IMG/VR virus record: IMGVR_UViG_3300025120_010481
Coordinates: 15,204 to 79,203 of that record
Source: a virus
Reading direction: 5' to 3' (one strand)
DNA length: 64,000 bases
The notes beneath the pieces are model-generated. The model ran no database searches and was not told where the DNA came from. It worked only from the letters and a program-made list of their open reading frames with translations. Within the stretch, counting starts at the first letter, position 1; each line of letters opens with the position of its first letter. Shown here in pieces: positions 17,894 to 54,005 of the stretch. The position numbers and the translations under genes were made by a program.

Positions 17894-19522
17894 TCAAATT
17901 TGTGAAACTTTATTCAATATAAGGGAGTTACCATCTCTACTGGACACTGTTCCGTTTATAAGAACCGTGTTTCCTTCAGTCAGCAAGTTTTTGTTCTTGC
18001 TATAATCCTCTGGGAAGGCAGTAACATCTAAAGACCCACTGCTGTCTTCAACTGACAAAAACGCCATAATGCTTCCGGCATTTTTACCCTTTTTTGTTTC
18101 ATACTCTCTTACTGAGGCTATAGAAACAGCAATAGAAGTTTTACCAATTATAGTACTATTATGTACATCTTTGCACATATTTTTTGCTAAATTTGATTTT
18201 ATTGAACCATCTACCACACTGCAAGTTAAAGAGCATCCAATTATTCTATTTTCTAAGTTCGCTATAGTCCAAGCGTGATCCTCTGTCGAGTAAGGGGGGT
18301 TTTTCAAAGACTCGACTAAATCAAGTAATTCTGAAACCTTTTTGGGTTGAACGATTATCCTGCCCCCATCACATTCTTTTGCTATGTATTGATATTCTGA
18401 CGAATCTTTGATAGAAACGTATTTATATTCTAGTGCTAATGAAATCCAAGCGTGTAAATCATCAAACGCCCCAGAGTAATGTTTGTACAAATTAGCAATG
18501 TGCTTTTTGATTGATGCAGATAAAGAGTTCCACACCCCGTATTCATAAAGCATTTTATTTCTTTGCGTTTTATTGTTTTTGCCATTAAACGCACCAATTG
18601 AAATCAGTGACTCAATAGTTCTTTTGCCTAGCTTTTCACCTTGTTTAACCCCGCCAAACGTAAATAAACAGTCAAGCCAAGTAAAAGAAGGAATATCTTT
18701 TGTTTTACCTAGCTTTTCTATGACCTGCACATCTACCGCAGAAACATTTTTAGCGTTAGAAATACCAAAATAAATAACACTCTTATCCTTATCCATAGTA
18801 AAGTCAGGGAACAACCTTGAAAGCGAAGGGGGATAAACTTCAATACTGTGATTCTTAGCATCCATAACAAATTCTTTTACGTCATCGCTATCTTTTGCGT
18901 GATTTAAATAAACCTCAAAAAATTTCAACGGCCTATGAGCCTTGCAGTAAGCACTTTGGTATGTATTAACAGCGTAAGCAATGCCATGAGATTTATTAAA
19001 TGCGTATCTACTTGATTTTTCAATCCAAGAAAAAATTTCTTCAGCTATTTCTTCCGAGACAATGCCTTGCTCTCCAGCACCAGAGATAAACCTTTCTTTA
19101 ACTTCAAGCATCAACTTGGCTTTCTTTTTACCAATCGCTTTTCTTAGGTTGTCAGCTTCTTTCAAGTCGAAGCCAGATAAAACCTTGGCTATCATCATGG
19201 ACTGTTCTTGGTAAACCAAAACACCATAAGTCTCTGAAAGGGTAGACTCCAAGGACGGATGATGGTACTTAGAGGGTTCCTTGCCTGACTTTCTGTCAAC
19301 ATAGGTTTGAGTCATAGACTTGCCATCCATGATAGCCTTCAAGCATCCCGGTCTAATCAAGGAAATCAAAGCCGATAACTCTGTAATACTTCTAGGTTTA
19401 ACCTTTTTAGCCCAACTGGAACCAAGCTGACTTTCAAGTTGAAATACGCCCTTGGTTCTTCCTTCGCTGATTAAATCCCAAGTTAATTTGTCATCAAAAT
19501 CATTAATATTAAAATCGTTCAC
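17894..19522 (-). CDS. dnaE: DNA polymerase III alpha subunit, C-terminal half (fingers, HhH, OB)
   Basis: TKGVFQLES, SLIRPG, TYGVLVYQEQ, ADNLRKAIGKK, YAFNKSH..AY, MAFLSVEDSSG. Confidence 0.93.
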   Translation of the reverse strand: MNDFNINDFDDKLTWDLISEGRTKGVFQLESQLGSSWAKKVKPRSITELSALISLIRPGCLKAIMDGKSMTQTYVDRKSGKEPSKYHHPSLESTLSETYGVLVYQEQSMMIAKVLSGFDLKEADNLRKAIGKKKAKLMLEVKERFISGAGEQGIVSEEIAEEIFSWIEKSSRYAFNKSHGIAYAVNTYQSAYCKAHRPLKFFEVYLNHAKDSDDVKEFVMDAKNHSIEVYPPSLSRLFPDFTMDKDKSVIYFGISNAKNVSAVDVQVIEKLGKTKDIPSFTWLDCLFTFGGVKQGEKLGKRTIESLISIGAFNGKNNKTQRNKMLYEYGVWNSLSASIKKHIANLYKHYSGAFDDLHAWISLALEYKYVSIKDSSEYQYIAKECDGGRIIVQPKKVSELLDLVESLKNPPYSTEDHAWTIANLENRIIGCSLTCSVVDGSIKSNLAKNMCKDVHNSTIIGKTSIAVSIASVREYETKKGKNAGSIMAFLSVEDSSGSLDVTAFPEDYSKNKNLLTEGNTVLINGTVSSRDGNSLILNKVSQI

Positions 19523-19530
19523 GTTAACCT

Positions 19531-20232
19531 CTAAGTTATATCAAAATTTCCGTTAGCAAATGCGTTCTTGAATTGAACCTTATTGTTGTCAATAATATTT
19601 CTTTGGAGCTTTAAAAATCTAATTAGAATATTCGCAGTATCTTTTACGTCTTGCAACGCATCATGTGCGTTTTCGTTAGGCATACCAAAGTACTCTCTTA
19701 GATAATCCATGTTATACTTATTTACTTCGGCGTGATTTTCAAACCAGCAGTAAATATGCTGCATCAAGTCGATTTTGTGAATTGGGTGGAATATTTTTTG
19801 CTCCCCATTTTTATCGCTTGTTGGGCCGTACTCTTGACAAAGCCTGTCTACGATCTTCATATCGAACCCATTAATATTGTAACCCGCAGCTATTGGTGCA
19901 TACCAAGGAGTTTTCTTGAAGTTAAACTGATCGCAAAACTTAGCGAAGTTTTTCCACACAGTCTTTGGCATTGGCCCTTTAGCAAGACTAGCTCTAGTTC
20001 TTTTTGTTACTTCTAGAGCACCTTCCTCGATTGGGTCAAAACCAGCGGCAATAGCTTTATCATCATTAGTTATGCACCTCATGGTACTTTCGAAAATGCC
20101 GTTAGGCTGAATCTTGAGCTTTCTTGCATGGATAGCTACGGCAGCAATTTGAGTGGGTTGACACTTTTCTGCGTTTCTTCCTGTGGTCTCAAAGTCAAAA
20201 ACAATTATATCACGATAATTCATATTAGCCAC
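19531..20232 (-). CDS. DEDDh 3'-5' exonuclease (DnaQ/epsilon-like)
   Basis: VFDFETTG, AGYNINGFD, AHDALQDV. Confidence 0.9.
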   Translation of the reverse strand: MANMNYRDIIVFDFETTGRNAEKCQPTQIAAVAIHARKLKIQPNGIFESTMRCITNDDKAIAAGFDPIEEGALEVTKRTRASLAKGPMPKTVWKNFAKFCDQFNFKKTPWYAPIAAGYNINGFDMKIVDRLCQEYGPTSDKNGEQKIFHPIHKIDLMQHIYCWFENHAEVNKYNMDYLREYFGMPNENAHDALQDVKDTANILIRFLKLQRNIIDNNKVQFKNAFANGNFDIT

Positions 20233-20455
20233 CCTTTTTTGAAATTTTTATAAATAAATCTGTAGCATCACCTAAGTCTTGGAACAATTCGTAAACCTTT
20301 TCTTTTTCACACCAAACTTGGTATTTACCCTTGGGAGTGTAATTCCCCATTATAACATCCTCCAAGTTGCATATAGATGCACCCTTTCTATTGACAACGG
20401 AATACCCGTGATAAACAACAGACATAATGTCTTCTTTGCCGCTAATAACTTTCAT
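20225..20455 (-). CDS. Hypothetical protein
   Basis: 76 aa ORF coupled between dnaE-N and the exonuclease. Confidence 0.55.
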   Translation of the reverse strand: MKVISGKEDIMSVVYHGYSVVNRKGASICNLEDVIMGNYTPKGKYQVWCEKEKVYELFQDLGDATDLFIKISKKGG

Positions 20456-22076
20456 CGCAAATCTCCATAATTTTAGTTAAAACATTTAAACCTAGAATAT
20501 CAAACTTAACATGCCCTTGGCTTTCTAAATCTTGCATTTCAAATGCCGCCACTGGATCACCAGATTTATTATCAATTACCGGACATATATCACTCAGTTT
20601 GTTTTTTGATATAACGACACCACAAGCGTGGGTGCTTTTACTCTTGATCGCCCCCTCTAGCTTAATCGCTAAATCAAACTCGTGAGACAAACCACCTTGA
20701 AGTTCGTCATCGCTGTTAATAAAACACCAAGACTTTAAATTGTCTGGGTTGTTTTTTAAAGCCCACATAATAACTGAGCTTTCTCCAGAAGCAGAAATCT
20801 TGTCTGAAATTTCTTGAGTTTCTGGAATCTGATCTGTGATTTCATTCATCTCTGAGAAACCCACAGAGCCACACACACGCAGAGATTCTTTTAGTGCTGA
20901 CTTTCCCTGAAGTCTACCAAAAGTAATCACCTGTGCCACTTTATCTTCCCCAAACAGGCTCTTGATGTAATCAATAACTTCATCCCTGTGAGAAGGAGGA
21001 ACGTCCAAGTCAATATCTGGCAAGGAAATATTATCTTTGGTGTTTCTACCCTCGTTATAGAATCTTTCAAACAAAAGATCGTTCTTGATTGGGTCTACAT
21101 TAGTAATTCCTATAAGGTATGATACTAGCGAACCCGCAGCAGAACCCCTTCCGGGGCCAACAATCCAACCTCTTTCCCTAACGTATCTAACAATATCTTG
21201 AACGATTAAAAAATAACCTGACAGTTCAGCGTTAAATATAACACTCATTTCTGACTGTACTCTATCAAGATAAGCCCGCTTGATTTTTTCTGTGCTTAAA
21301 ACATCAGGAGTCAACTTAGATGCCCAGCCTTCTCTGCATAATTGTTTAAGGTAATCATCCTGAGACATTCCGTCTGGACATTTAAATTCTGGAAGCATGG
21401 GCTTTGCTGTGATTTCATAGTCTTCGCAGGATTCAACAATTTTAGATATTTTACTAAACTGATCTTCCTGTGTATTTGCCCCTAAGTAAAAATTACTAGA
21501 ATCAAAAAACCTTTGATTGTTAGACTCTTCCCATCTTTCCTTGTTGATTGATCTCATCTTTTTAAAGTTAGTTTTCATCCCAGAAAGAATCATAACTCTG
21601 TGAGCTTCCGCATCAGTTTCGTCAACATAGTATGTTCCAGTCTCTACGATTTCATGAAAGTTGCTTTTAAACATCTTACTTAAAACGTTTGACAGATTGT
21701 CCTTGGGTTTATCAGACTGACAGTCTCTAAAAACCACACACGCAATATTGTTTTTGGATGCCATAATCTTTAAGCTGTCTAGCTTTTTAAAATTTTCTGA
21801 TTGAAAATCTGAAGTAAACTGAATCAACTCAAAATAACCCTGCTTGTTTTTAGCAAACAAAGAGAAGTCATTGAAATCGCAACCAATTATTGGCTTGATT
21901 CCGTTGTCCTTGCAAGCCTTGTGAAAAGCTGGCACGCCCGACACGTTCTCGATATCGTTAATTGCACATGCTTGATAGCCATTTTCCTTGCATCTCTTTG
22001 CAATATTGTCGCATTGACAAAATCCTTTCTGGATGCTGTAGTCAGTTTTGACATTTAGTGGAGTATATTCGCTCAT
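20442..22076 (-). CDS. dnaE: DNA polymerase III alpha subunit, N-terminal half (PHP + palm/thumb)
   Basis: PHP-like N-terminus (GIKPIIG), YFLIVQD, GPGRGSAAGSLVSY, LLFERF, PDIDLD, STHACGVVI, VKFDILGL at the C-terminus. Confidence 0.93.
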   Translation of the reverse strand: MSEYTPLNVKTDYSIQKGFCQCDNIAKRCKENGYQACAINDIENVSGVPAFHKACKDNGIKPIIGCDFNDFSLFAKNKQGYFELIQFTSDFQSENFKKLDSLKIMASKNNIACVVFRDCQSDKPKDNLSNVLSKMFKSNFHEIVETGTYYVDETDAEAHRVMILSGMKTNFKKMRSINKERWEESNNQRFFDSSNFYLGANTQEDQFSKISKIVESCEDYEITAKPMLPEFKCPDGMSQDDYLKQLCREGWASKLTPDVLSTEKIKRAYLDRVQSEMSVIFNAELSGYFLIVQDIVRYVRERGWIVGPGRGSAAGSLVSYLIGITNVDPIKNDLLFERFYNEGRNTKDNISLPDIDLDVPPSHRDEVIDYIKSLFGEDKVAQVITFGRLQGKSALKESLRVCGSVGFSEMNEITDQIPETQEISDKISASGESSVIMWALKNNPDNLKSWCFINSDDELQGGLSHEFDLAIKLEGAIKSKSTHACGVVISKNKLSDICPVIDNKSGDPVAAFEMQDLESQGHVKFDILGLNVLTKIMEICDESY

Positions 22077-23131: not shown

Positions 23132-23937
23132 TATTTGCTTTCTTGGTTTGCTGTTATGGATACATTTTCCTCAAGCCATCCCCATTTCTCAATGAACTTC
23201 ATAACTTCCATGCTCGTGTCTAGAATTGACAAGCCCGAATTATCAATAACTGCGTCAAATTTATCCAGATGATTACCCAACTCATTTTCCGAAGAATGGC
23301 TGTCCTTAGAGCCTTCATTTCGATTTAAGTAAATAACTTTTCCCCCAACCTTTTGAATGGCTTCTAGTTCATTTAAAAATCGAACGTCGTCAATTGTTGC
23401 GATTAGAGATTCTTCAGACTCAATGCTGTCAATGCAGTATTTAGTCCAGATATCTTTGTACATGTTACGCATGATGTCTGTGCCCAAAAACTGTAAAAAC
23501 TCGCGGGCGGTCATTAACCCCTTTTTCTTGCCGAATTTAGTTTTTGATTTTGGCATGTTCTCCCACCGCAAATGTTCTTGTTTTTGTTTTTTCTGTTCGC
23601 CAGTCCCGTACAAACACTCTTCGGGTACGTTAAAAAGATTAAGAACCAATTGCTTGAGAGGTTCAGCAAAAGAATAATTCTTGATAAAGGGCCACATGCT
23701 ATAAGCTGCCCATTCCGCAAATTCGTAGTCCTTTCGATTAACGTCGATCATGGCAAGTTTTTGCTCTATTTCTTTTTCACTTTTCATGTCCTCTGTTTGA
23801 ACGAGCAGCTTTCCTTCTTTGCTCAACCCAAAATCGCTAATGATTCCTTGTGCTCTCATCTGGTATCCGTGTAGGAAGTTCGCACATGTGCTTTTACCAG
23901 ACTGCTTCTTACCCGCAAACGCTATAATGTTCGTCAT
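23131..23937 (-). CDS. Deoxynucleoside monophosphate kinase (T4 gp1-like)
   Basis: AGKKQSGKST, SFAEPLK, AREFLQFLGTD, DDVRFLNE, HSSE. Confidence 0.88.
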   Translation of the reverse strand: MTNIIAFAGKKQSGKSTCANFLHGYQMRAQGIISDFGLSKEGKLLVQTEDMKSEKEIEQKLAMIDVNRKDYEFAEWAAYSMWPFIKNYSFAEPLKQLVLNLFNVPEECLYGTGEQKKQKQEHLRWENMPKSKTKFGKKKGLMTAREFLQFLGTDIMRNMYKDIWTKYCIDSIESEESLIATIDDVRFLNELEAIQKVGGKVIYLNRNEGSKDSHSSENELGNHLDKFDAVIDNSGLSILDTSMEVMKFIEKWGWLEENVSITANQESK

Positions 23938-25033
23938 TGATTATTCCTTTTAGTGATGGATAAATTTCATTTTTAATTTCTTGAACTGTCATGCTGCCCA
24001 CATCCCACTCGCTCTGGGGTAGCCCTGTAGACTTAAACCAGTCTTTTAAGTTTGGTCTAATATAGTTAAATCTTCTTCCGCATTTATTGACTATATCTTT
24101 GTAGGCTGTATCACCAGCTTCATCGTAGTCAGTCAATATCACAACGTTGAAAGCTCCTGATTTTTCTAGTACTATTAGCTGCTTGTCCGACAAAGAGCTT
24201 CCAAAAATCCCTACAGACATAGCAAGCCCAGACTCGTAAAGCCTCCAAACGTCTGATTGGCCTTCAACCAATATAACTGTTCCAGAGCTTAATATATACT
24301 CTGATGCAATGTTAAACCCGTATAGATTAGCGGACTTAGAAAAGCCTTTACTGTTTCTCCATTTTGGGTTTGACTTCGAAACTTCAGTTTTAGTCCTGCC
24401 AACGCAACCAGAGTAATTACAATGTTCATCGTATATTGGAACTACCACCCGCCCAAACATTGACTGTTTAGAATCCTTGCAGTCACCAATATCAAAAGTG
24501 TCCAATGCTTCAGCCGAAAACCTTTTACGTTCGTCTTTGTTGTTTAGGTAGTACACTGAAGGAATTTCAAGTTTTCCCCTGATCAAATCTCTAGATATAG
24601 TAGGGGTCGAGTCAGTTAAACTTTCTTCGTTAAATATTTTAAACACTTGATTAACTCTACCCTTGTCATAGTTAGATTCTTCTACTTTTGCCACATCCAT
24701 TTTTAGAAAATCGCAACAAAATTTAAGAGCCTTATGGAACGAATTTTCTTCGCACCCGTTTCTCTCCATCCATCCACGAACAAGGCCAATCAAAGAGCCT
24801 GAAAACTCTTCTTCGCAGTGCCTAGTCCAGCAATGCCAATTTCCCTTAGCTGAATTGCCATCCGTAAATATGCAACAAGCCTCTGGATTGTCACCCCCAT
24901 GAACTGGACAAGGAAATGCAATTCTATTAGGGTACTCAATAAAATCAATATCCATGTGAGTCAAAAACTCAGGTAGCTGCTCTAGTAATTCTTCGCAAAT
25001 TTTAGAAATTTGTTTCTGTGTTAGACTCTTCAT
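23909..25033 (-). CDS. dnaG: DNA primase (CHC2 zinc finger + TOPRIM)
   Basis: CPVHGGDN..WHCWTRHC, GR, KWRNS, LVEGQSDV, DYDEAG. Confidence 0.88.
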   Translation of the reverse strand: MKSLTQKQISKICEELLEQLPEFLTHMDIDFIEYPNRIAFPCPVHGGDNPEACCIFTDGNSAKGNWHCWTRHCEEEFSGSLIGLVRGWMERNGCEENSFHKALKFCCDFLKMDVAKVEESNYDKGRVNQVFKIFNEESLTDSTPTISRDLIRGKLEIPSVYYLNNKDERKRFSAEALDTFDIGDCKDSKQSMFGRVVVPIYDEHCNYSGCVGRTKTEVSKSNPKWRNSKGFSKSANLYGFNIASEYILSSGTVILVEGQSDVWRLYESGLAMSVGIFGSSLSDKQLIVLEKSGAFNVVILTDYDEAGDTAYKDIVNKCGRRFNYIRPNLKDWFKSTGLPQSEWDVGSMTVQEIKNEIYPSLKGIINDEHYSVCG

Positions 25034-46471: not shown

Positions 46472-47686
46472 TTATACAAACAACTCTTTTATAATTTTTC
46501 CTGAGTTTGCTATCTTCATAGGTCGCCCACCGTTGCTTGTATAAGTGGTCTCCAACGAAATGCCAAGAGCATTACAAATCGACACCATTACATCTTCCGA
46601 AGAGTGGCTTTCTGTTTCTACTTTTGTTCCGTCTTCGTTTGTTGAACCTACAGATATACCACCATTCATACCAGCCCCACCCACAACCACACTCCAGCTT
46701 CTTGCCCAGTGGTCTCGTCCGGCGTTCTGGTTGATTTGTGGTGTTCTACTAAACTCTCCCATCCATATGATAGCCGTGTCGTCAAGCAGTCCTCGCTGCT
46801 CTAGGTCTTCTATTAACGCACTCATGCCTTGGTCTAGCATGGGTAACTTTGTGTCTTTTAATGTTGGAAAAATATTCTGATGGTTGTCCCAGCCGTTTAG
46901 CCCGACCTCGATAAATGGAACGCCAACCTCAACAAGCCTTCTAGCCATTAGACATCCCTTGCCAAAGCTGTTGTCCCCGTATCGTTCCTTAACGGAATCT
47001 GGCTCTACGTCCACCTTCATTGCGTCCATCTCACTACTGGTCAAAACATCAAATGTTTTTCGCAGTATCTTTTGATGTTCTTTAGCGAGAGACCCTCTAT
47101 TGTTTTTTATGAAGTTGTTTTCCATTAAATGTAGGGCTTGTGCCCTTTGACGGAATCTATCATCTATTTTTAAGTCTAGATTTCTAATTCTACCATCGCT
47201 GTTTACCACGAACGGAGAATATTCAGCACCTAAAAATCCACCTCCAGCACTTGGCCCATTAACTGACACAAACTGAGGTATCAAAAGGTCTTCTCTCTCT
47301 AGCTCTTTAGAAAGAATAGCTCCGTAACTTGGGTGAACCATATTTGGATTAGGCACATAGCCTGTGTGCATGTAGTAACGACCCCGCATGTGGTCAGCTT
47401 CACGGGTACTCATGCTTCGCACAATAGCCATGTTGTGCATCTGCTTTGCCATTAGCGGCATATGCTCACAAATTTCTACATCTCCGGTTGTACTTATGGG
47501 CTTGAATGGGCCACCAGTTGGTGCGTCTGGTTTTAAGTCCCATATGTCCATCGTTGACGGGCCACCTCCCATCCAGAGAAGTATGGCCGATTTGCCCTTT
47601 TTCTTTAATTCCTTCTCGTTAGCCTTGAGGGTTTGCGTTAAAGCGGCAAGCCCAGCTAGTGATGATAAAAACTGTCTTCTTTTCAT
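46472..47686 (-). CDS. DUF1501 family protein with Tat signal (abundant in Planctomycetes)
   Basis: MKRRQFL Tat motif, LWMGGGPS.MD.WDLKP, GCLMARRLVE.GV.F, GWDNH, GEFSRTP.IN..GRDHW. Confidence 0.9.
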   Translation of the reverse strand: MKRRQFLSSLAGLAALTQTLKANEKELKKKGKSAILLWMGGGPSTMDIWDLKPDAPTGGPFKPISTTGDVEICEHMPLMAKQMHNMAIVRSMSTREADHMRGRYYMHTGYVPNPNMVHPSYGAILSKELEREDLLIPQFVSVNGPSAGGGFLGAEYSPFVVNSDGRIRNLDLKIDDRFRQRAQALHLMENNFIKNNRGSLAKEHQKILRKTFDVLTSSEMDAMKVDVEPDSVKERYGDNSFGKGCLMARRLVEVGVPFIEVGLNGWDNHQNIFPTLKDTKLPMLDQGMSALIEDLEQRGLLDDTAIIWMGEFSRTPQINQNAGRDHWARSWSVVVGGAGMNGGISVGSTNEDGTKVETESHSSEDVMVSICNALGISLETTYTSNGGRPMKIANSGKIIKELFV

Positions 47687-47739: not shown

Positions 47740-48435
47740 TTACTTGCGATTGTCAGGGTAGCGAAGAAACATGACTAAATCGTCACCGCACTCTGAAAGA
47801 GTAAGTTCACTGACTTCATTCTTTCCCGGTTTCATGTTCGCGATGTCATCGGGAGTTTCAATCTCCCCATTTGGCCCCGCTGAAACCACGCGAATGAATT
47901 TGGATTCTGTTTGATTGATGATTCCGTCTTGGTCAAAATCGACCTGTAACTCAAGTTCATTTCCCCAACCATCCACGATTGTTGGTTCACCAGTTTCGTT
48001 TCGCCCCGTCGCACGCACATAGGGGCCATGCCAGCCAATTTTGTTGACCGGATCGTAGTTTTTAAGTTCGGGGGCGGCTTCTTCCATGTGGGCTGGTGCA
48101 TCCTCTTTGAGGAGATCGTTGATTTCTCTTGGAAGAGCATTTGTCTTGTGTGACAGTGACTCAATAACACCGTCTTCCCCCGCCATCGCTTCACGAACGG
48201 TATTCAGCGTAGCCTGCGTAGCAATTTCGACAGGGCTGTTGGACTCACCAGAAGGCGAGGTGATATCAATATTGTTAAACGTGGTGAATATGAGGGCGGT
48301 CGCGATTAAAATCACCAATACGACTAATAGTTCGAGGAGCGTCAAACCACGTTGATTTAAGTGATGACGCGATCCACGGGTTTGAGTTAAAGCAGCAAGT
48401 CCAGATAGCGATGATAAAAACTGTCTTCTTTTCAT
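47740..48435 (-). CDS. Chimeric protein: duplicated DUF1501 Tat leader fused to a prepilin-type N-terminal cleavage/methylation (pseudopilin GspG-like) protein
   Basis: MKRRQFLSSLSGLAALTQT + QRG|LTLLELLVVLVIL, GWHGPY, DGWGN, VVSAGPNG; GC higher than the flanks. Confidence 0.8.
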   Translation of the reverse strand: MKRRQFLSSLSGLAALTQTRGSRHHLNQRGLTLLELLVVLVILIATALIFTTFNNIDITSPSGESNSPVEIATQATLNTVREAMAGEDGVIESLSHKTNALPREINDLLKEDAPAHMEEAAPELKNYDPVNKIGWHGPYVRATGRNETGEPTIVDGWGNELELQVDFDQDGIINQTESKFIRVVSAGPNGEIETPDDIANMKPGKNEVSELTLSECGDDLVMFLRYPDNRK

Positions 48436-48453
48436 TTTTCGTGTATCCTTATC
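48378..48453. repeat. 76-bp imperfect direct repeat, copy 2
   Basis: See 47629-47704. Confidence 0.9.
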
Positions 48454-48493
48454 TTTATATTCCTGCTTATTTTTTATTTTGTAAATCCGTTAG

Positions 48494-48510
48494 CGTGTCA
48501 AACTGACACA
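48494..48510 (-). promoter_or_regulatory. Candidate bacterial SECIS hairpin
   Basis: UGUGUCA-GUU-UGACACG begins 13 nt after the in-frame UGA at 48526-48524. Confidence 0.45.
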
Positions 48511-48511
48511 A

Positions 48512-49780
48512 TTACCAAGCTCGTCACGACCAATATCTGGCTTTCCATTTAGGCCCCGGAGTTTCGCATTTATGCCTAGCTCTAAATGACTTTCTCCTAG
48601 CTGGATCAGACTTCTTGATTCTCATATTTGGATCGCCAAAGTTAACCTTTACTACGTTACCCTTTTCGTTTTTAACATAAACAGATCGTTTTTTCGGGCC
48701 ATCTGGTGTTAGAAACGGTTTCCCTAGTTTAACTTTTCTACCTTGATATTCTGCTGCTCTTACGGGAACCAAGTTCCTGCCATCCTTTGTGTAAATACCT
48801 TTCCTTTCAAATTCATAAATTTGTCCGGTTTTAAGGTCTTTGTACTTGTACCCAGCCTTGTCTTTACGTAAAAGCTCAAAGTCTTCCTGAGTAATTTTAC
48901 CATCTTTATTTTTGTCTAGAGCTTTCTTCTGCTTGTCTGACATTTTAGCTTTAGATTTTCTAGGATGCCCCTTTGGTAAAAGATCGTTGTCTTGCGTATA
49001 AGCTGCGTTCTTTGGTCTGCCAGTTCTAAGCAGATGAATGAAAGCGTTTACTCTAGCCATAGCCCACCCATCTCTAGACATCTTGGGGGCGTGACTTGTT
49101 GAAAATGCTCCAGCACCTCGACGGTATACGGCTTTGAGCATACCGAGAGTCGCTTTTGATCCCTTGTCCTTGTCGTTATGTTCCTTTGCCTTTTTGGATA
49201 GTCTTTCAGTAGTGTTCTTACTGAAGGTGATTTTACCGCTAGGATTTTTTGCACTGTCTGGCTTGTTCTTTTTCGAGCCTTTTTTCTGGTCTTTTTTTGG
49301 AGCGGGGGTTCTTCTTGGATCACTAGGCTTTGCTTCTGCCTCAAAGAAATCTTTAACAGAATCATATTCTTGATTTTGGGCACGTTTCAATTGGTCTTTA
49401 GTTGGCCTGCCTTCTTTGACTGTCTTAGCAGGCTTATAATCGTCGCCCTCTCTTTGCTTTTTTCGTCTGATGTTTTCCCAAAGTCCCGGCTTTGCCACAG
49501 AAATATCCCATTCTTCTGTTTCTTCTCCCCAATCTTCATACTCTTCTTCGGACGGAACGTAAAAGTTGTCTTCGTTGATCGCCTCTGTGTAGCCATCGTG
49601 AATAACGTCATGGGCAAAAGCAGCAGAGCTTAGAGTTTCCAAGCCTTCTAACGCCTTGGACATGCAGACCGCCATTCTTTGGGAGTTGTCTTTAAACTCT
49701 TGAATTGACTTTTCGTCAGACATACATCTAGACAAAAAGTTTTCCCTTGATTCTCCGTCTTTTTTTGATGGAAGTGGCAT
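48512..49780 (-). CDS. Multidomain basic phage protein (DUF5824-like, EF-hand, C-terminal RARHxC..RYWS(C) domain); UGA at 48524-48526 possibly read as Sec
   Basis: LKAVYRRGAGAF..WAMARVNAF; EF-hand DKNKDGKITQED; KVNFGDPNM..RKSFRARHKC..KARYWS-UGA-RAW-UAA. Confidence 0.7.
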
Positions 49781-49790
49781 TGTTGCTCCT

Positions 49791-50459
49791 TTAGATTTTG
49801 TGCTTTATGTCTTGCCATATAGCTGAAGTGATAACCATAGCAGCATCGTTGTCTGAGGGGTAGTGAACCCCCTGTAAAACACGAGCGTGACCAGCTAGAT
49901 TGGCTATTTCGTAAAACTTAGATGATTGTTCTGGGTAAATATCTGATAGAATTGATGCCATTAAAGTGGCATATGCTGTGTGCCCAGATGGATAAGCTGG
50001 GGTTTGATGGCTTTTAGTTTTAATTACATTGATAGTAATATCGTTGTAAAACCTTGGGAAAGCCGAAACTAACTGTTCGGGTCTAGGTCTATTGAATTTA
50101 TTTTTCAGAGATATAACAATAGGCTCTAAAATATTCCAAGACTTTTTAAACTTTGCAGCAGGCAACGGAAGGATGTCCGCACCTAGAAGTTCAACGAACA
50201 ACAGGTTCGGGTCTTTGTCTACTAGCATTACTAGGTTTTTCTCAGCCGCCGTTAGTGACTGAGTAAGCTCTGAGACTAGCTTTAACTCTGATTTGGTAAC
50301 ATCGCTAGTGTTTTTAGGTGGTTCAGTAAGCACCCCATATGGCTTTATCGAAACCAAATCGCTGAATTCGGTATCTTCTGGGGGTTTTTCCTCTCTGTAG
50401 CCCAGTCTGTCAATATTTTTCAACATTGATTCGTTAGCTTGCAATATAAACTTGCTCAA
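49791..50459 (-). CDS. PAP2-superfamily phosphatase/haloperoxidase-like protein
   Basis: KNKFNRPRP, YPSGH, ARVLQGVHYPSD. Confidence 0.88.
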   Translation of the reverse strand: MSKFILQANESMLKNIDRLGYREEKPPEDTEFSDLVSIKPYGVLTEPPKNTSDVTKSELKLVSELTQSLTAAEKNLVMLVDKDPNLLFVELLGADILPLPAAKFKKSWNILEPIVISLKNKFNRPRPEQLVSAFPRFYNDITINVIKTKSHQTPAYPSGHTAYATLMASILSDIYPEQSSKFYEIANLAGHARVLQGVHYPSDNDAAMVITSAIWQDIKHKI

Positions 50460-52471: not shown

Positions 52472-52880
52472 AGTCATCGTTTACCGTTGGCATTACCGCT
52501 ACAGGAAGAATAATACCTTGATGAAGCATACGATTAAATTCGGTTACTTCTGATGGGACTTTACAGCAGCCGATAACTCTTGGCCTAGACTGCATAGCCT
52601 TTTTAACACCCCCACGCAACTTAGATGGAATTGATTTAACGGCTTCAACGGTATTGCATCTAGCAGATTTAACAGCCTTGACAGTTCTACTCTTAGCTTT
52701 TTGGACATGACACATTACGTTTCGTGCGGTGTCCTTCAGGGAAACTCTGGCTTTGTTTTTTAGGCAGGCTAGACGATCAAGTGCCGGAGTGTCGCACTCT
52801 GCCATTGATACATTAGAAAGGCCAATAGCAACAACAAAAAACGCAGCACACACAATAAGATTCTTCATTAAACTCTCCAT
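52452..52880 (-). CDS. Secreted hypothetical protein
   Basis: Signal-peptide-like N-terminus; basic repeats (VKAVKS/VEAVKS). Confidence 0.55.
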   Translation of the reverse strand: MESLMKNLIVCAAFFVVAIGLSNVSMAECDTPALDRLACLKNKARVSLKDTARNVMCHVQKAKSRTVKAVKSARCNTVEAVKSIPSKLRGGVKKAMQSRPRVIGCCKVPSEVTEFNRMLHQGIILPVAVMPTVNDDFIVQDN

Positions 52881-52924
52881 TTTAAAAAAATTATTTCCGA
52901 TACAACACGGAATTTGAAATCATA

Positions 52925-52948
52925 AAAGTCCGTTTTTTACAGAAACGG
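52925..52948 (-). terminator. Terminator after tmRNA coding piece
   Basis: CCGUUU..AAACGG stem followed by ACUUUU. Confidence 0.55.
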
Positions 52949-52959
52949 TTTGCATAAAA

Positions 52960-53200
52960 CTGGCTATGTTGGATGATAAGGTATAGCACCTCAGACAGCC
53001 TACGCTGCCATTGCGAAACTTGCGTTTGCAAATAACATTTTAGTCTGATTTTTAGAGAGCCATCAGACCAACTCTCTGTTGCGGTCATTGTTTCTTTTTG
53101 TCAGTCGATTCCATTACGTCCCCTTGATTTGGCAAGTGGAGACGGCGGGATTCGAACCCGCGTCCTGCACAAACTTCTGCAATAACGTCTACAACAATAT
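52960..53200 (-). ncRNA. ssrA: Circularly permuted two-piece tmRNA: acceptor piece ~53200-53137, 13-nt intervening segment, coding piece 53123-~52960; tag (A)ANASFAMAA
   Basis: Acceptor piece ends GACGCGGG-TTCGAAT-CCCGC-CGTCTCC-A; coding piece starts GGGGACG-TAATGGAATCGAC; 7-bp acceptor stem with G3:U70; PK1 GAGAG/CTCTC + GTCTGAT/ATCAGAC; tag at 53029-53000. Confidence 0.92.
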
Positions 53201-53212
53201 CCCCGAAGGGAG

Positions 53213-53285
53213 AGCCGCCTGTGGGAGTCGAACCTACAACCTGAGACTTACAAAATCCCTGCTCTGCCAATTGAGCTAAAGCGGC
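53213..53285 (-). tRNA. tRNA-Thr(UGU)
   Basis: GCCGCTT/AGGCGGC acceptor, GCTC/GAGC D-stem, loop TT-TGT-AA, TTCGACT T-loop; CCA not encoded. Confidence 0.93.
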
Positions 53286-53299
53286 TTATTCTTACAATT

Positions 53300-53328
53300 A
53301 TTATAGCACCTAAAACTATATTTGGCAA
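53300..53328 (-). promoter_or_regulatory. Sigma70 promoter for the tRNA-Thr/tmRNA transcript
   Basis: TTGCCA-N17-TATAAT, 14 nt upstream of the tRNA. Confidence 0.75.
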
Positions 53329-53351
53329 CCTGTTTTTTATTTTATTTACAA

Positions 53352-53909
53352 TTATATCTCTTTTACGTATAGATTCCACTCTTTGGGCATCGACTTAGAT
53401 ACTAGACTTTTAGAGTAAATATGTGCCATGTTAGGTTCTTTTGGGCTTTTAATAAGTTTCATGTCTGCCTCGGAAGGGGTTTTATTTCCCTTCTTGAAGT
53501 TACATCTCTTGCAAGAGATAACAATATTTTCCCAGCTATGGCTTTGCTTTCTTGATTTAAACCTACATTTAGGTATCACATGATCTATAGTGGCTTCTTT
53601 GTGTTCTAATAATTTTTGACAATACTGGCACTTACCTTCGTCTCTAATCATTACGCTTTTCTTTTTTATTTTAATCTTGCGTTTTCTTTTTATGTACTTA
53701 TTAGAAACCGCAACAGCAGGAACTTTTACATGATTACCGCTAGAGCTTTTAACTAGGTCGTCTAAATACCACTCGACAACCCTTACTCCGTAACCAGTTG
53801 CTCCATCACCAATCATACCTAAACAGATCGCCCTTTTCCAGTTAACTACTGTCAAGGGCTTCCAGTCTTGATTTAGTATTAAGCAAGGCTTGTGGTTACT
53901 TGTTTCCAT
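53352..53909 (-). CDS. HNH endonuclease (McrA-like)
   Basis: LILNQDWKPL, RDEGKCQYC, TIDHVIPK, WENIVISCKRCNFKKG.KTP.EA.M. Confidence 0.9.
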   Translation of the reverse strand: METSNHKPCLILNQDWKPLTVVNWKRAICLGMIGDGATGYGVRVVEWYLDDLVKSSSGNHVKVPAVAVSNKYIKRKRKIKIKKKSVMIRDEGKCQYCQKLLEHKEATIDHVIPKCRFKSRKQSHSWENIVISCKRCNFKKGNKTPSEADMKLIKSPKEPNMAHIYSKSLVSKSMPKEWNLYVKEI

Positions 53910-53932
53910 TTAAGAGACTCTCAATGTCAAAG

Positions 53933-54005
53933 CTGTGAGAACAGGACTCGAACCTGTGACCAAGAAATTAACAGTTTCCCGCTCTACCAACTGAGCTACC
54001 TCACA
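53933..54005 (-). tRNA. tRNA-Asn(GUU)
   Basis: TGTGAGG/TCTCACA acceptor, G73, loop CT-GTT-AA, ACAGG-TTCGAGT-CCTGT. Confidence 0.93.

What the first reader, a model, noticed from the sequence alone, without database searches (positions are those of the whole stretch)
52960..53200. Phage-encoded circularly permuted, two-piece tmRNA with its own proteolysis tag (ANASFAMAA)
Seen (minus strand): the tmRNA 3' module comes first, with T-arm GCGGG-UUCGAAU-CCCGC, acceptor strand CGUCUCC and discriminator A at 53137. A 13-nt spacer follows, then the 5' module GGGGACG-UAAUGGAAUCGAC starting at 53123. The two strands form a 7-bp acceptor stem with the alanyl G3:U70 pair. Inter-piece P2 helices pair (CUG/CAG, ACAAA/UUUGU, CAAUGAC/GUUAUUG, CAACA/UGUUG). 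A PK1 pseudoknot precedes UAUUU-GCA, which matches the U85/A86 resume context. The tag reads ANASFAMAA-UAG (53029-53000), and one more pseudoknot (GAGGU/ACCUU + GCUAU/AUAGC) and a terminator follow. Established: permuted two-piece tmRNAs with fewer pseudoknots are known from alphaproteobacteria, some betaproteobacteria and marine cyanobacteria, and the well-known phage tmRNAs are one-piece. Inference: this may be an independent permutation in a phage of a probable planctomycete host, supplying or replacing ribosome rescue during infection.
Basis: partly seen in the sequence, partly recalled or inferred. Interest (0 to 1): 0.93.

Follow-up and report, generated by a model that had tools for sequence, protein, structure and literature searches.

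The report
Phage two-piece tmRNA, independently permuted
An uncultured marine phage, probably of a planctomycete host, carries a real "split and reordered" ribosome-rescue RNA (tmRNA) with its own tag, and related phages still carry the ordinary one-piece form, so the reordering most likely arose within this phage lineage rather than being borrowed from the bacteria known to have it.

Summary
ARAGORN calls a permuted tmRNA with tag ANASFAMAA, and Rfam tmRNA_permuted scores 97 bits against a threshold of 47. The gene lies mid-contig in a phage replication and tRNA region.

I first suspected capture from the betaproteobacterial two-piece lineage, which shares the FAMAA tag ending and gives the best clan model. 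Later evidence rejected this.
- Related phages (shared PAP2, glycosyltransferase, RNR, SSB and DnaE-like polymerase genes) carry full one-piece tmRNAs tagged VEENFALAA.
- Sister phages carry two-piece genes 74-89% identical to those one-piece genes in rotated order. They share the window's 13-nt spacer (11/13 identical), its UUCG hairpin, its missing CCA and an upstream tRNA.
- Lineage profiles score the window's rotated core at 82 bits for this clade, against 40 (beta), 18 (alpha) and 18 (cyano).
- The nearest cellular relatives are Pirellulaceae one-piece tmRNAs (AEENFALAA).
- Eighteen of 59 base pairs show compensatory changes.

Caveats:
- AU tests rarely reject other tree placements.
- Processing and function are inferred.
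- No SmpB gene was found.
- Two-piece phage tmRNAs are already published, and this scan noted planctomycete-phage ones before, on other DNA.

The parts
53300..53328 (-). Promoter-like site TTGCCA-17-TATAAT with an extended -10 TG (11 of 12 matches), upstream of tRNA-Thr
   Evidence: Promoter scan
53213..53285 (-). tRNA-Thr(UGU), no encoded CCA, directly upstream of the tmRNA and probably co-transcribed with it
   Evidence: ARAGORN; Rfam tRNA 58.1 bits
53200..53211 (-). UCCC-UUCG-GGGA hairpin between tRNA-Thr and the acceptor piece. It is conserved in the sister two-piece genes and aligns with the last hairpin before P2 in the one-piece relatives.
53137..53196 (-). Acceptor piece: 3' strands of P2 (UGUUGU, GUUAUUG, UUUGU, CAG), T-arm with canonical T-loop UUCGAAU, acceptor 3' strand CGUCUCC and discriminator A53137
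53124..53136 (-). 13-nt intervening spacer CUUGCCAAAUCAA. CCA is not encoded. It is 11/13 identical to the spacer of L204.
53078..53123 (-). Start of the coding piece: acceptor 5' strand GGGGACG (with G3), D-loop analogue UAAUGGAAUCGAC, and the 5' strands of P2 (CUG, ACAAA, CAAUGAC, GCAAC)
53041..53077 (-). Pseudoknot PK1: S1 AGAGAG/CUCUCU and S2 UGGUCUGA/UCAGACUA. Both stems are fully compensated in the relatives.
53000..53029 (-). Tag reading frame GCA AAC GCA AGU UUC GCA AUG GCA GCG UAG, encoding ANASFAMAA-stop. U at -5 and A at -4 precede the resume codon.
   Evidence: ARAGORN (tag not in its table); sequence
52963..52992 (-). Pseudoknot PK2 (GAGGU/ACCUU plus GCUAU/AUAGC), homologous to PK2 of the one-piece relatives
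52922..52948 (-). Intrinsic terminator CCGUUU-loop-AAACGG followed by a U tract; the 3' end of the coding piece
   Evidence: Terminator scan
53932..54005 (-). tRNA-Asn(GUU), part of the same small tRNA cluster. An HNH endonuclease ORF at 53352-53909 lies between it and tRNA-Thr.

Best explanation
This is a functional, phage-encoded two-piece (circularly permuted) tmRNA gene.

Likely expression and processing (inferred):
- It is transcribed with tRNA-Thr from one strong promoter.
- tRNA-processing enzymes would cut the precursor. RNase P would cut 5' of G53123 (the first G of GGGGACG). tRNA 3' processing would free the acceptor piece with its UUCG-capped 5' hairpin.
- The 13-nt spacer would be removed, and the host would add CCA after A53137.
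- The two pieces pair through four P2 helices and form an alanine-accepting tRNA-like domain with G3:U70.

Likely action (inferred): with the host's AlaRS and SmpB, the RNA enters stalled ribosomes, resumes translation at GCA and appends ANASFAMAA.

Origin (shown by comparison): the gene belongs to a family of tmRNAs carried by related marine phages, probably of Pirellulaceae-type planctomycetes.
- The ancestral form in this family is the ordinary one-piece tmRNA with tag (A/V)EENFALAA.
- In one branch the gene became permuted, probably by tandem duplication followed by loss of the outer halves and of about 100 nt (PK3-PK4).
- This event was separate from the alpha-, beta- and cyanobacterial permutations.
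- The window's copy is a fast-evolving member whose tag was rewritten. FALAA to FAMAA needs a single base change.
For: The gene is real.
- ARAGORN and Rfam both detect it.
- Consensus folding of the family gives 59 pairs, 18 of them with compensatory double changes across P2, the T-arm, the acceptor stem and PK1.
- Both PK1 stems and PK2 stem 2 differ in sequence but still pair in every lineage.
- A promoter and a terminator bracket the tRNA-Thr plus tmRNA unit.

It is phage-encoded.
- The record is a virus contig carrying RNR, a DnaE-like polymerase, DnaB, SSB and HNH genes.

Origin.
- L036's two-piece gene aligns with one-piece VEENFALAA/AEENFALAA genes in rotated order. Its 27-94 matches their 275-342 at 74-89% identity, and its 107-235 matches their 1-129 at 70-80%.
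- Those one-piece genes are full standard tmRNAs, RF00023 at 78-145 bits.
- They sit on contigs sharing 3-7 genes in the same order with the window at 33-64% amino-acid identity. L036's phage has a polymerase 50% identical to the window's.
- In trees of rotated cores, the permuted VEENFALAA genes nest within the one-piece phage clade (100/89). The window pair falls in a clade of phage and Pirellulaceae-type tmRNAs, with support 99/95 and 98/99. The alpha, beta and cyano lineages form their own clades.
- Shared characters: a 13-nt spacer (11/13 identical to L204), a UUCG hairpin followed by UGUAGACGUU, A|CUU instead of an encoded CCA, and a tRNA immediately upstream.
- Profile HMMs built without the window score its core at 81.8 bits for the phage EENFALAA clade and 70.9 bits for one-piece EENFALAA genes alone. 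The other lineages score 39.5/23.6 (beta), 17.9 (alpha) and 18.4 (cyano).
- The rotated alignment shows PK2 retained and PK3-PK4 missing.

Host.
- ARAGORN's tag table assigns AEENFALAA to Pirellula and Rhodopirellula.
- Contig L267, which carries such a tmRNA, has a gene 83% identical to a Neorhodopirellula pilleata protein.
- The window's pilin-like gene is 64-77% identical to Mariniblastus/Pirellulaceae proteins.
Against: - The window's tmRNA is very divergent, only about 66-70% core identity to any relative. Its tree position changed with the alignment method.
- AU tests do not reject placing it beside beta (p 0.11-0.30) or alpha (p 0.16-0.20). They reject cyano in only one alignment (p 0.027).
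- Even for the sister group, only beta is rejected (p 0.045), and not alpha (p 0.13) or cyano (p 0.09).
- Within Rfam's clan the best model is beta_tmRNA (67.9 bits, below its threshold of 84), and alpha_tmRNA is formally passed (55.9 against 50).
- The tag ending FAMAA was found in cellular two-piece genes only in Betaproteobacteria (14 of 14).
- The two-piece gene is not at the position of the one-piece gene in relatives, which sits next to PAP2.
- No SmpB was found on any of the four records, all of which are incomplete.
- Nothing here shows processing, charging or tagging.
Confidence: 0.75

Rival explanations
1. The phage captured a ready-made two-piece tmRNA from the betaproteobacterial permuted lineage, or from one of their phages, and it then diverged. 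No new permutation event would be needed.
For: - beta_tmRNA is the best Rfam clan model over its full length, E 3e-20.
- All 14 cellular permuted tmRNAs whose tag ends in FAMAA are Betaproteobacteria.
- Many IMG/VR contigs carry beta-type genes above threshold.
- AU tests do not reject a beta placement (p 0.11-0.30).
Against: - The score is below the family's gathering threshold (67.9 against 84).
- BLAST similarity to beta is limited to the T-arm and the tag.
- Profile HMMs score 23.6-39.5 bits for beta against 81.8 for the phage EENFALAA clade. For the 5' module the beta profiles give 4.8 bits or no hit.
- The beta genes inspected (L006, L007) encode CCA and have a different spacer, and they have GUCGUAAUU where the window has UGUAGACGUU.
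- FALAA to FAMAA is a single substitution.
- The sister two-piece genes nest in a one-piece clade, and grouping them with beta is rejected at p 0.045.
Confidence: 0.07
2. The window/L002 gene and the L036/L172/L204 genes were permuted in two separate events within the same phage family. The window would then be its own event.
For: - In the best trees the window pair is not the direct sister of the permuted VEENFALAA group.
- The upstream tRNAs differ: Thr in the window, Lys and Glu in the sisters.
- The window lacks the post-tag hairpin that the sisters have.
Against: - The spacer has the same 13-nt length and is 11/13 identical.
- The same UUCG hairpin lies at the same distance from UGUAGACGUU, and the break position is the same.
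- The AU test does not reject monophyly of the two-piece genes (p 0.18 and 0.40).
Confidence: 0.1
3. The RNA does not rescue and tag productively. It would act as a decoy that titrates host SmpB or AlaRS and inhibits host trans-translation, or it is a decaying remnant.
For: - No phage SmpB was found.
- A mycobacteriophage tRNA-like-domain-only molecule is reported to inhibit tmRNA (PMC4131195).
- The tag differs from the presumed host tag AEENFALAA.
Against: - The tag frame, resume context, PK1 and PK2 are all intact. They are maintained by compensatory changes across lineages that are otherwise only about 66% identical.
- The C-terminal half of the tag is conserved (FA-L/M-AA).
- A decoy would need only the tRNA-like domain.
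Confidence: 0.1

Closest known systems
Published phage-encoded two-piece tmRNAs: OM43 phage Melnitz, pelagimyophages and cyanophages (Buchholz et al. 2022, PMC9004378)
   Same: A permuted ssrA gene carried by a large marine phage, often inside or beside a tRNA cluster, with its own tag and no phage SmpB reported. ARAGORN detects it in the same way.
   Different: The published genes are assigned to the alpha, beta/gamma or cyanobacterial two-piece lineages and read as captured from hosts. This one fits none of those lineage profiles. Its nearest relatives are one-piece genes of related phages and of Pirellulaceae. No glutamine riboswitch was found (no glnA RNA match at E<=1).
One-piece tmRNA (Rfam RF00023) of Pirellulaceae (Pirellula, Rhodopirellula; tag AEENFALAA) and the one-piece VEENFALAA tmRNAs of related phages
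   Same: They give the best profile match over the whole rotated core (70.9-81.8 bits). The 5' end to the stop codon is 124-128 nt in both forms. PK1, PK2 and the UGUAGAC motif are homologous, and CCA is not encoded in the phage copies. The tag's C-terminal half is FA(L/M)AA.
   Different: The gene order is rotated. About 100 nt (PK3-PK4) are missing. A 13-nt spacer joins the 3' and 5' tRNA-like halves. The tag's N-terminal half is rewritten from (A/V)EEN to ANAS.
Betaproteobacterial two-piece tmRNA (Rfam RF01850; Sharkady and Williams 2004, known to me but not held in the library)
   Same: The same overall architecture: acceptor piece, spacer and coding piece, with PK1, tag and a single downstream pseudoknot. 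The tag ends in FAMAA.
   Different: The score is below the gathering threshold. The beta genes inspected encode CCA. P2 and PK1 show no detectable sequence similarity, and the profile score is 40 bits lower than for the phage EENFALAA clade.

Membership tests
tmRNA (any gene form) | tRNA-like domain: 7-bp acceptor stem with G3:U70, discriminator A, and a T-arm with a canonical T-loop | tested here: met
   Read from the sequence. G3:U70 is invariant across the family (pair 119:138). Detected by ARAGORN.
tmRNA (any gene form) | A tag reading frame with an Ala resume codon, a hydrophobic ...AA end and a stop codon, preceded by pseudoknot PK1 | tested here: met
   The frame GCA...GCA GCG UAG encodes ANASFAMAA. 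Both PK1 stems are compensated in the relatives.
tmRNA (any gene form) | Alanylation, SmpB binding and tagging of stalled-ribosome products | not testable with these tools
   This needs experiments. No SmpB gene was found on the phage records.
Permuted (two-piece) tmRNA gene form, Rfam RF04321 | The 3' tRNA-like half precedes the 5' half, separated by a spacer, and the match scores above the gathering threshold | tested here: met
   97.1 bits against 47 over the full model 1-213. ARAGORN reports 'tmRNA*'.
Permuted (two-piece) tmRNA gene form, Rfam RF04321 | The precursor is cleaved into two RNAs held together by base pairing | not testable with these tools
   Only the four inter-piece helices, with their covariation, are shown.
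Betaproteobacterial two-piece lineage (RF01850) | Score at or above the curated gathering threshold of 84 bits | tested here: not met
   67.9 bits for the window and 60-76 bits for its sisters.
Betaproteobacterial two-piece lineage (RF01850) | Sequence kinship of P2, PK1 and the spacer with beta genes | tested here: not met
   The nhmmer beta profiles score 23.6-39.5 bits, and 4.8 bits or no hit for the 5' module. The spacer, the CCA and the P2 motif all differ.
Alphaproteobacterial two-piece lineage (RF01849) | Score at or above the gathering threshold of 50 bits | tested here: met
   55.9 bits, but over a partial model only (40-293 of 355). The sisters L172 and L204 score 55-57 bits.
Alphaproteobacterial two-piece lineage (RF01849) | The unusual alpha T-loop (GGCGGUA in the alpha references inspected) and membership of the alpha clade | tested here: not met
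   The window has the canonical UUCGAAU, while the two alpha references printed in full have GGCGGUA. The alpha clade (100/98-99) excludes the window. The alpha profile scores 17.9 bits. The AU test alone does not reject an alpha placement (p 0.16-0.20).
Cyanobacterial two-piece lineage (RF01851) | Kinship with cyano-type genes (ANNIV...-type tags) | tested here: not met
   The cyano clade (100/99) excludes the window. AU gives p 0.027 in one alignment and 0.29 in another. The cyano profile scores 18.4 bits.
Phage/Pirellulaceae (A/V)EENFALAA tmRNA clade (defined here) | Best full-length profile match, placement in the clade, and the shared spacer, hairpin and missing CCA of its two-piece members | tested here: met
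   81.8 bits over the full length. Clade support is 99/95 and 98/99. The spacer is 11/13 identical. The carrying phages are related.

The most novel reading that the evidence does not exclude
The permutation of tmRNA happened inside a virus lineage, with the one-piece 'before' and two-piece 'after' forms both surviving in related phages.

The two-piece form would be tied to an upstream tRNA gene, whose 3' processing creates the acceptor piece's 5' end. After permutation the phage would have rewritten the tag's adaptor-facing half from (A/V)EEN to ANAS. That would give it a private tagging channel that differs from its host's.
Probability: 0.35. Interest if true: 0.75.

Novelty: new variant of a known kind. 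Interest (0 to 1): 0.62.

Why it matters
The literature I could search names three bacterial lineages with circularly permuted tmRNA genes (alpha, beta and cyano), plus mitochondria. It treats phage two-piece tmRNAs as copies of those.

Here a further permutation is traced to a phage family in which close relatives still carry the one-piece gene. This gives a natural before-and-after pair.
- It shows what is lost: PK3 and PK4.
- It shows what is kept: PK1, PK2 and P2.
- It shows what the spacer is made of: the start of the 3' trailer and the end of the 5' leader, as a tandem-duplication origin predicts.
- It shows what new context the gene needs: a tRNA directly upstream.

It also shows that the lineage-specific Rfam models can mislabel such genes (alpha by threshold, beta by best score). 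Finally, it adds a marker for phages of marine planctomycetes, whose viruses are poorly known.

Tried and rejected
1. Beta-lineage capture was my working hypothesis through. It rested on the tag, the best clan model and a pseudoknot loop motif. I dropped it. The ACCCAAA-type PK2 loop also occurs in the one-piece relatives, so it is not a beta marker.
2. Alpha lineage: rejected because of the T-loop, the clade structure and the profile score.
3. Cyano lineage: rejected by clade, profile score and tag, even though cyanophage genes show the same tRNA-Thr(UGU)-then-tmRNA arrangement.
4. A glutamine riboswitch as in phage Melnitz: no Rfam match at E<=1 in 52600-53500.
5. Phage SmpB: none found on four records.
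6. Isolate phages (INPHARED): no blastn match to the tmRNA. The polymerase is at most about 36% identical to any isolate phage's, and about 30% over its full length.
7. A tree of the native, unrotated genes could not resolve the lineage.
8. Naming the long AEENFALAA contigs failed. The homologues carried no names, the records are not held, and the Atlas gave only RNase R with mixed taxa. Those contigs, at about 38% GC, are probably Veillonella-like and are not close to the phage clade.
I therefore could not fetch tmRNAs from named planctomycete genomes directly.

Full report
**1. The observation**

These are the T-arm, the acceptor 3' strand with discriminator A53137, a 13-nt spacer, GGGGACG at 53123, four inter-piece helices, PK1, the tag frame 53029-53000 (ANASFAMAA-stop), a second pseudoknot and a terminator.

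ARAGORN calls a permuted tmRNA with that tag. Rfam's tmRNA_permuted model scores 97.1 bits against a threshold of 47.

**2. Context**

The window is part of a 79-kb IMG/VR virus record, about 51% complete. About 95% of its ORFs lie on one strand.

It encodes RNR, a split DnaE-like polymerase, DnaB, SSB, ThyX, UvdE, HNH and many glycosyltransferases.

The tmRNA follows tRNA-Asn, an HNH ORF and tRNA-Thr(UGU). A near-consensus extended -10 promoter precedes tRNA-Thr, and a terminator follows the coding piece. tRNA-Thr, a UUCG hairpin and both tmRNA pieces therefore look like one transcript.

A second viral contig (L002) carries the same cluster at 98% identity. No SmpB gene is present on this or three related records, all of them incomplete.

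**3. What is already known**

Two-piece phage tmRNAs are published. Phage Melnitz has one, and 53 of 133 unique phage tmRNAs were called two-piece by ARAGORN (PMC9004378).

A restrictive pattern found 110 permuted tmRNAs in IMG/VR. Most are cyanophage-type and sit in tRNA clusters, and at least 12 pass the beta_tmRNA threshold. "Phage two-piece tmRNA" is therefore not new in itself.

Planctomycetota genomes have 1,914 standard tmRNAs, 1 alpha-type and no beta-type (PMC11915505, Supplementary Table 2).

**4. First hypothesis, later rejected**

The evidence first pointed to the betaproteobacterial lineage. beta_tmRNA was the best clan model (67.9 bits, below its threshold of 84). All 14 cellular permuted tmRNAs with a FAMAA tag end were Betaproteobacteria.

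Trees of the native genes left the window on a long branch. AU tests rejected nothing.

**5. The turn**

Two sister genes (L036, L044) share the window's upstream hairpin, UGUAGACGUU block and 13-nt spacer, but carry the tag VEENFALAA. Notes from earlier in this scan recalled AEENFALAA as the Pirellula tag.

A metagenome scan for EENFALAA returned mostly one-piece tmRNAs plus a few permuted ones.

L036 aligns to the one-piece VEENFALAA/AEENFALAA genes in rotated order at 70-89% identity. That is far better than its match to any alpha, beta or cyano gene. Rfam confirms the one-piece genes as full standard tmRNAs.

The contigs carrying them share three to seven genes with the window, in the same order and orientation, at 33-64% amino-acid identity. 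The shared genes are PAP2, a glycosyltransferase, three unnamed proteins, RNR and SSB. L036's phage has a polymerase 50% identical to the window's.

Relatives of this phage therefore carry the ordinary one-piece gene.

**6. Placing the window**

- **Trees of rotated cores.** The permuted VEENFALAA genes nest inside the phage one-piece clade (100/89), which lies inside AEENFALAA tmRNAs. With module-wise alignment the window pair falls in that clade (99/95; 98/99 in the focused tree). Alpha, beta and cyano form separate, well-supported clades.
- **Limits of the AU tests.** The tests are weak on about 190 columns. For the window, cyano is rejected in only one alignment (p 0.027). Beta and alpha are not rejected (p 0.11-0.30). 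For the sister group, beta is rejected (p 0.045) but alpha (0.13) and cyano (0.09) are not.
- **Characters outside the tree.** The spacer is 13 nt in all five two-piece genes, and the window's is 11/13 identical to L204's. A UUCG hairpin lies at the same distance before UGUAGACGUU. The discriminator is followed by CUU and not CCA, as in the one-piece phage genes. The two beta genes shown in the same comparison (L006, L007) and the two alpha references printed in full (L135, L139) encode CCA. Those two alpha references also have a GGCGGUA T-loop. A tRNA gene abuts the hairpin in L172 and L204 too, but not next to the one-piece genes.
- **Profile HMMs built without the window.** Its core scores 81.8 bits (phage EENFALAA clade) and 70.9 bits (one-piece EENFALAA only). 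The other profiles score 45.6 (standard Pseudomonadota), 39.5/23.6 (beta), 17.9 (alpha) and 18.4 (cyano). For the 5' module the contrast is 33.9 bits against at most 6.7.

**7. Anatomy of the change**

The rotated alignment shows the two-piece genes collinear with the one-piece genes through the 5' tRNA-like half, P2, PK1, the tag and PK2. About 100 nt (PK3-PK4) are then missing, and the alignment resumes at the hairpin before P2's 3' strands.

The spacer begins like the one-piece 3' trailers (CUU) and ends like their 5' leaders (...AAAUCA). A tandem duplication followed by loss of the outer halves would produce this; that reading is an inference.

FALAA to FAMAA is one substitution (CUG to AUG). 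The N-terminal half of the tag changed at 7 of 12 bases.

**8. Selection**

Across lineages only about 66% identical, 18 of 59 predicted pairs show double compensatory changes. G3:U70 is invariant. Both PK1 stems and PK2 stem 2 are re-paired with different sequences. This argues for a working RNA.

**9. Host**

- ARAGORN's table lists AEENFALAA for Pirellula sp. and Rhodopirellula baltica, and also for Veillonella.
- The cellular-looking tmRNAs closest to the phage clade lie on 53-57% GC contigs. One of these carries a gene 83% identical to a Neorhodopirellula pilleata protein.
- The window's pilin-like gene is 64-77% identical to Mariniblastus/Pirellulaceae proteins, and a DUF1501 gene lies beside it.

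A planctomycete (Pirellulales) host is probable but not shown.

**10. Verdict**

This is a real, phage-encoded two-piece tmRNA with a tag unknown to ARAGORN. It most likely belongs to a permutation event that arose within a planctomycete-phage lineage, separate from the three classical lineages.

I found no paper describing this. This scan had noted planctomycete-phage two-piece tmRNAs before, on other DNA (e1-5737481, e1-5359861).

Noticed in passing
L006 / L281 (genome G001, Gallionellaceae MAG, contig C56:23746-24638); the same arrangement appears likely in L011: A full standard tmRNA (RF00023, 225.7 bits, at 23746-24115) lies about 300 nt upstream of a permuted tmRNA (RF04321, 139 bits, at 24428-24638; tag ANDENFAMAA), with weak tRNA-like-domain matches in between. 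One-piece and two-piece genes in tandem in a single genome could be a snapshot of how the permutation arose, or an integration scar.
   Followed up: no
L241:5753-6141 (metagenome contig): Another permuted tmRNA with the planctomycete-type tag AEENFALAA. It has an 88-nt spacer that begins with CCA, and it just passes beta_tmRNA (85.2 bits against 84). It sits on a long branch away from the window family and may be yet another permutation event.
   Followed up: partly
IMG/VR loci L024, L027, L029, L031, L037, L042, L045, L046, L053, L060, L062, L063, L066, L070, L071, L075, L082, L084, L088, L090: In many cyanophage-type contigs a tRNA-Thr(UGU) gene directly abuts the 5' side of the permuted tmRNA, the same arrangement as in the window. 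The recurrence suggests that upstream tRNA processing helps to mature the acceptor piece.
   Followed up: partly
window 17894-22076 (-): The DnaE-like (Pol III alpha-type) polymerase is split into two ORFs (20442-22076 and 17894-19522). Two small ORFs separate them (19531-20232 and 20225-20455). The same polymerase is 50% identical in L036's phage.
   Followed up: no
window 47740-48435 (-) and 46472-47686 (-): A prepilin-type gene is 64-77% identical to Mariniblastus/Pirellulaceae proteins, with 95-97% identical copies in marine metagenomes including Tara. It lies next to a strong DUF1501 gene (345 bits). Both look like host-derived cargo and serve as host clues.
   Followed up: partly
L222, L232, L261, L239, L253, L211, L231 compared with window 48436-50459: In related phages the one-piece tmRNA lies immediately downstream of the PAP2 gene, sometimes after a short ORF matching the C-terminus of the window's 418-aa protein. 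The window has no tmRNA at that site and instead carries its two-piece gene 2.5 kb away in the tRNA cluster.
   Followed up: partly
window 53352-53909 (-): An HNH endonuclease ORF sits between tRNA-Asn and the tRNA-Thr/tmRNA unit. It is a possible homing element that might move this RNA cassette.
   Followed up: no
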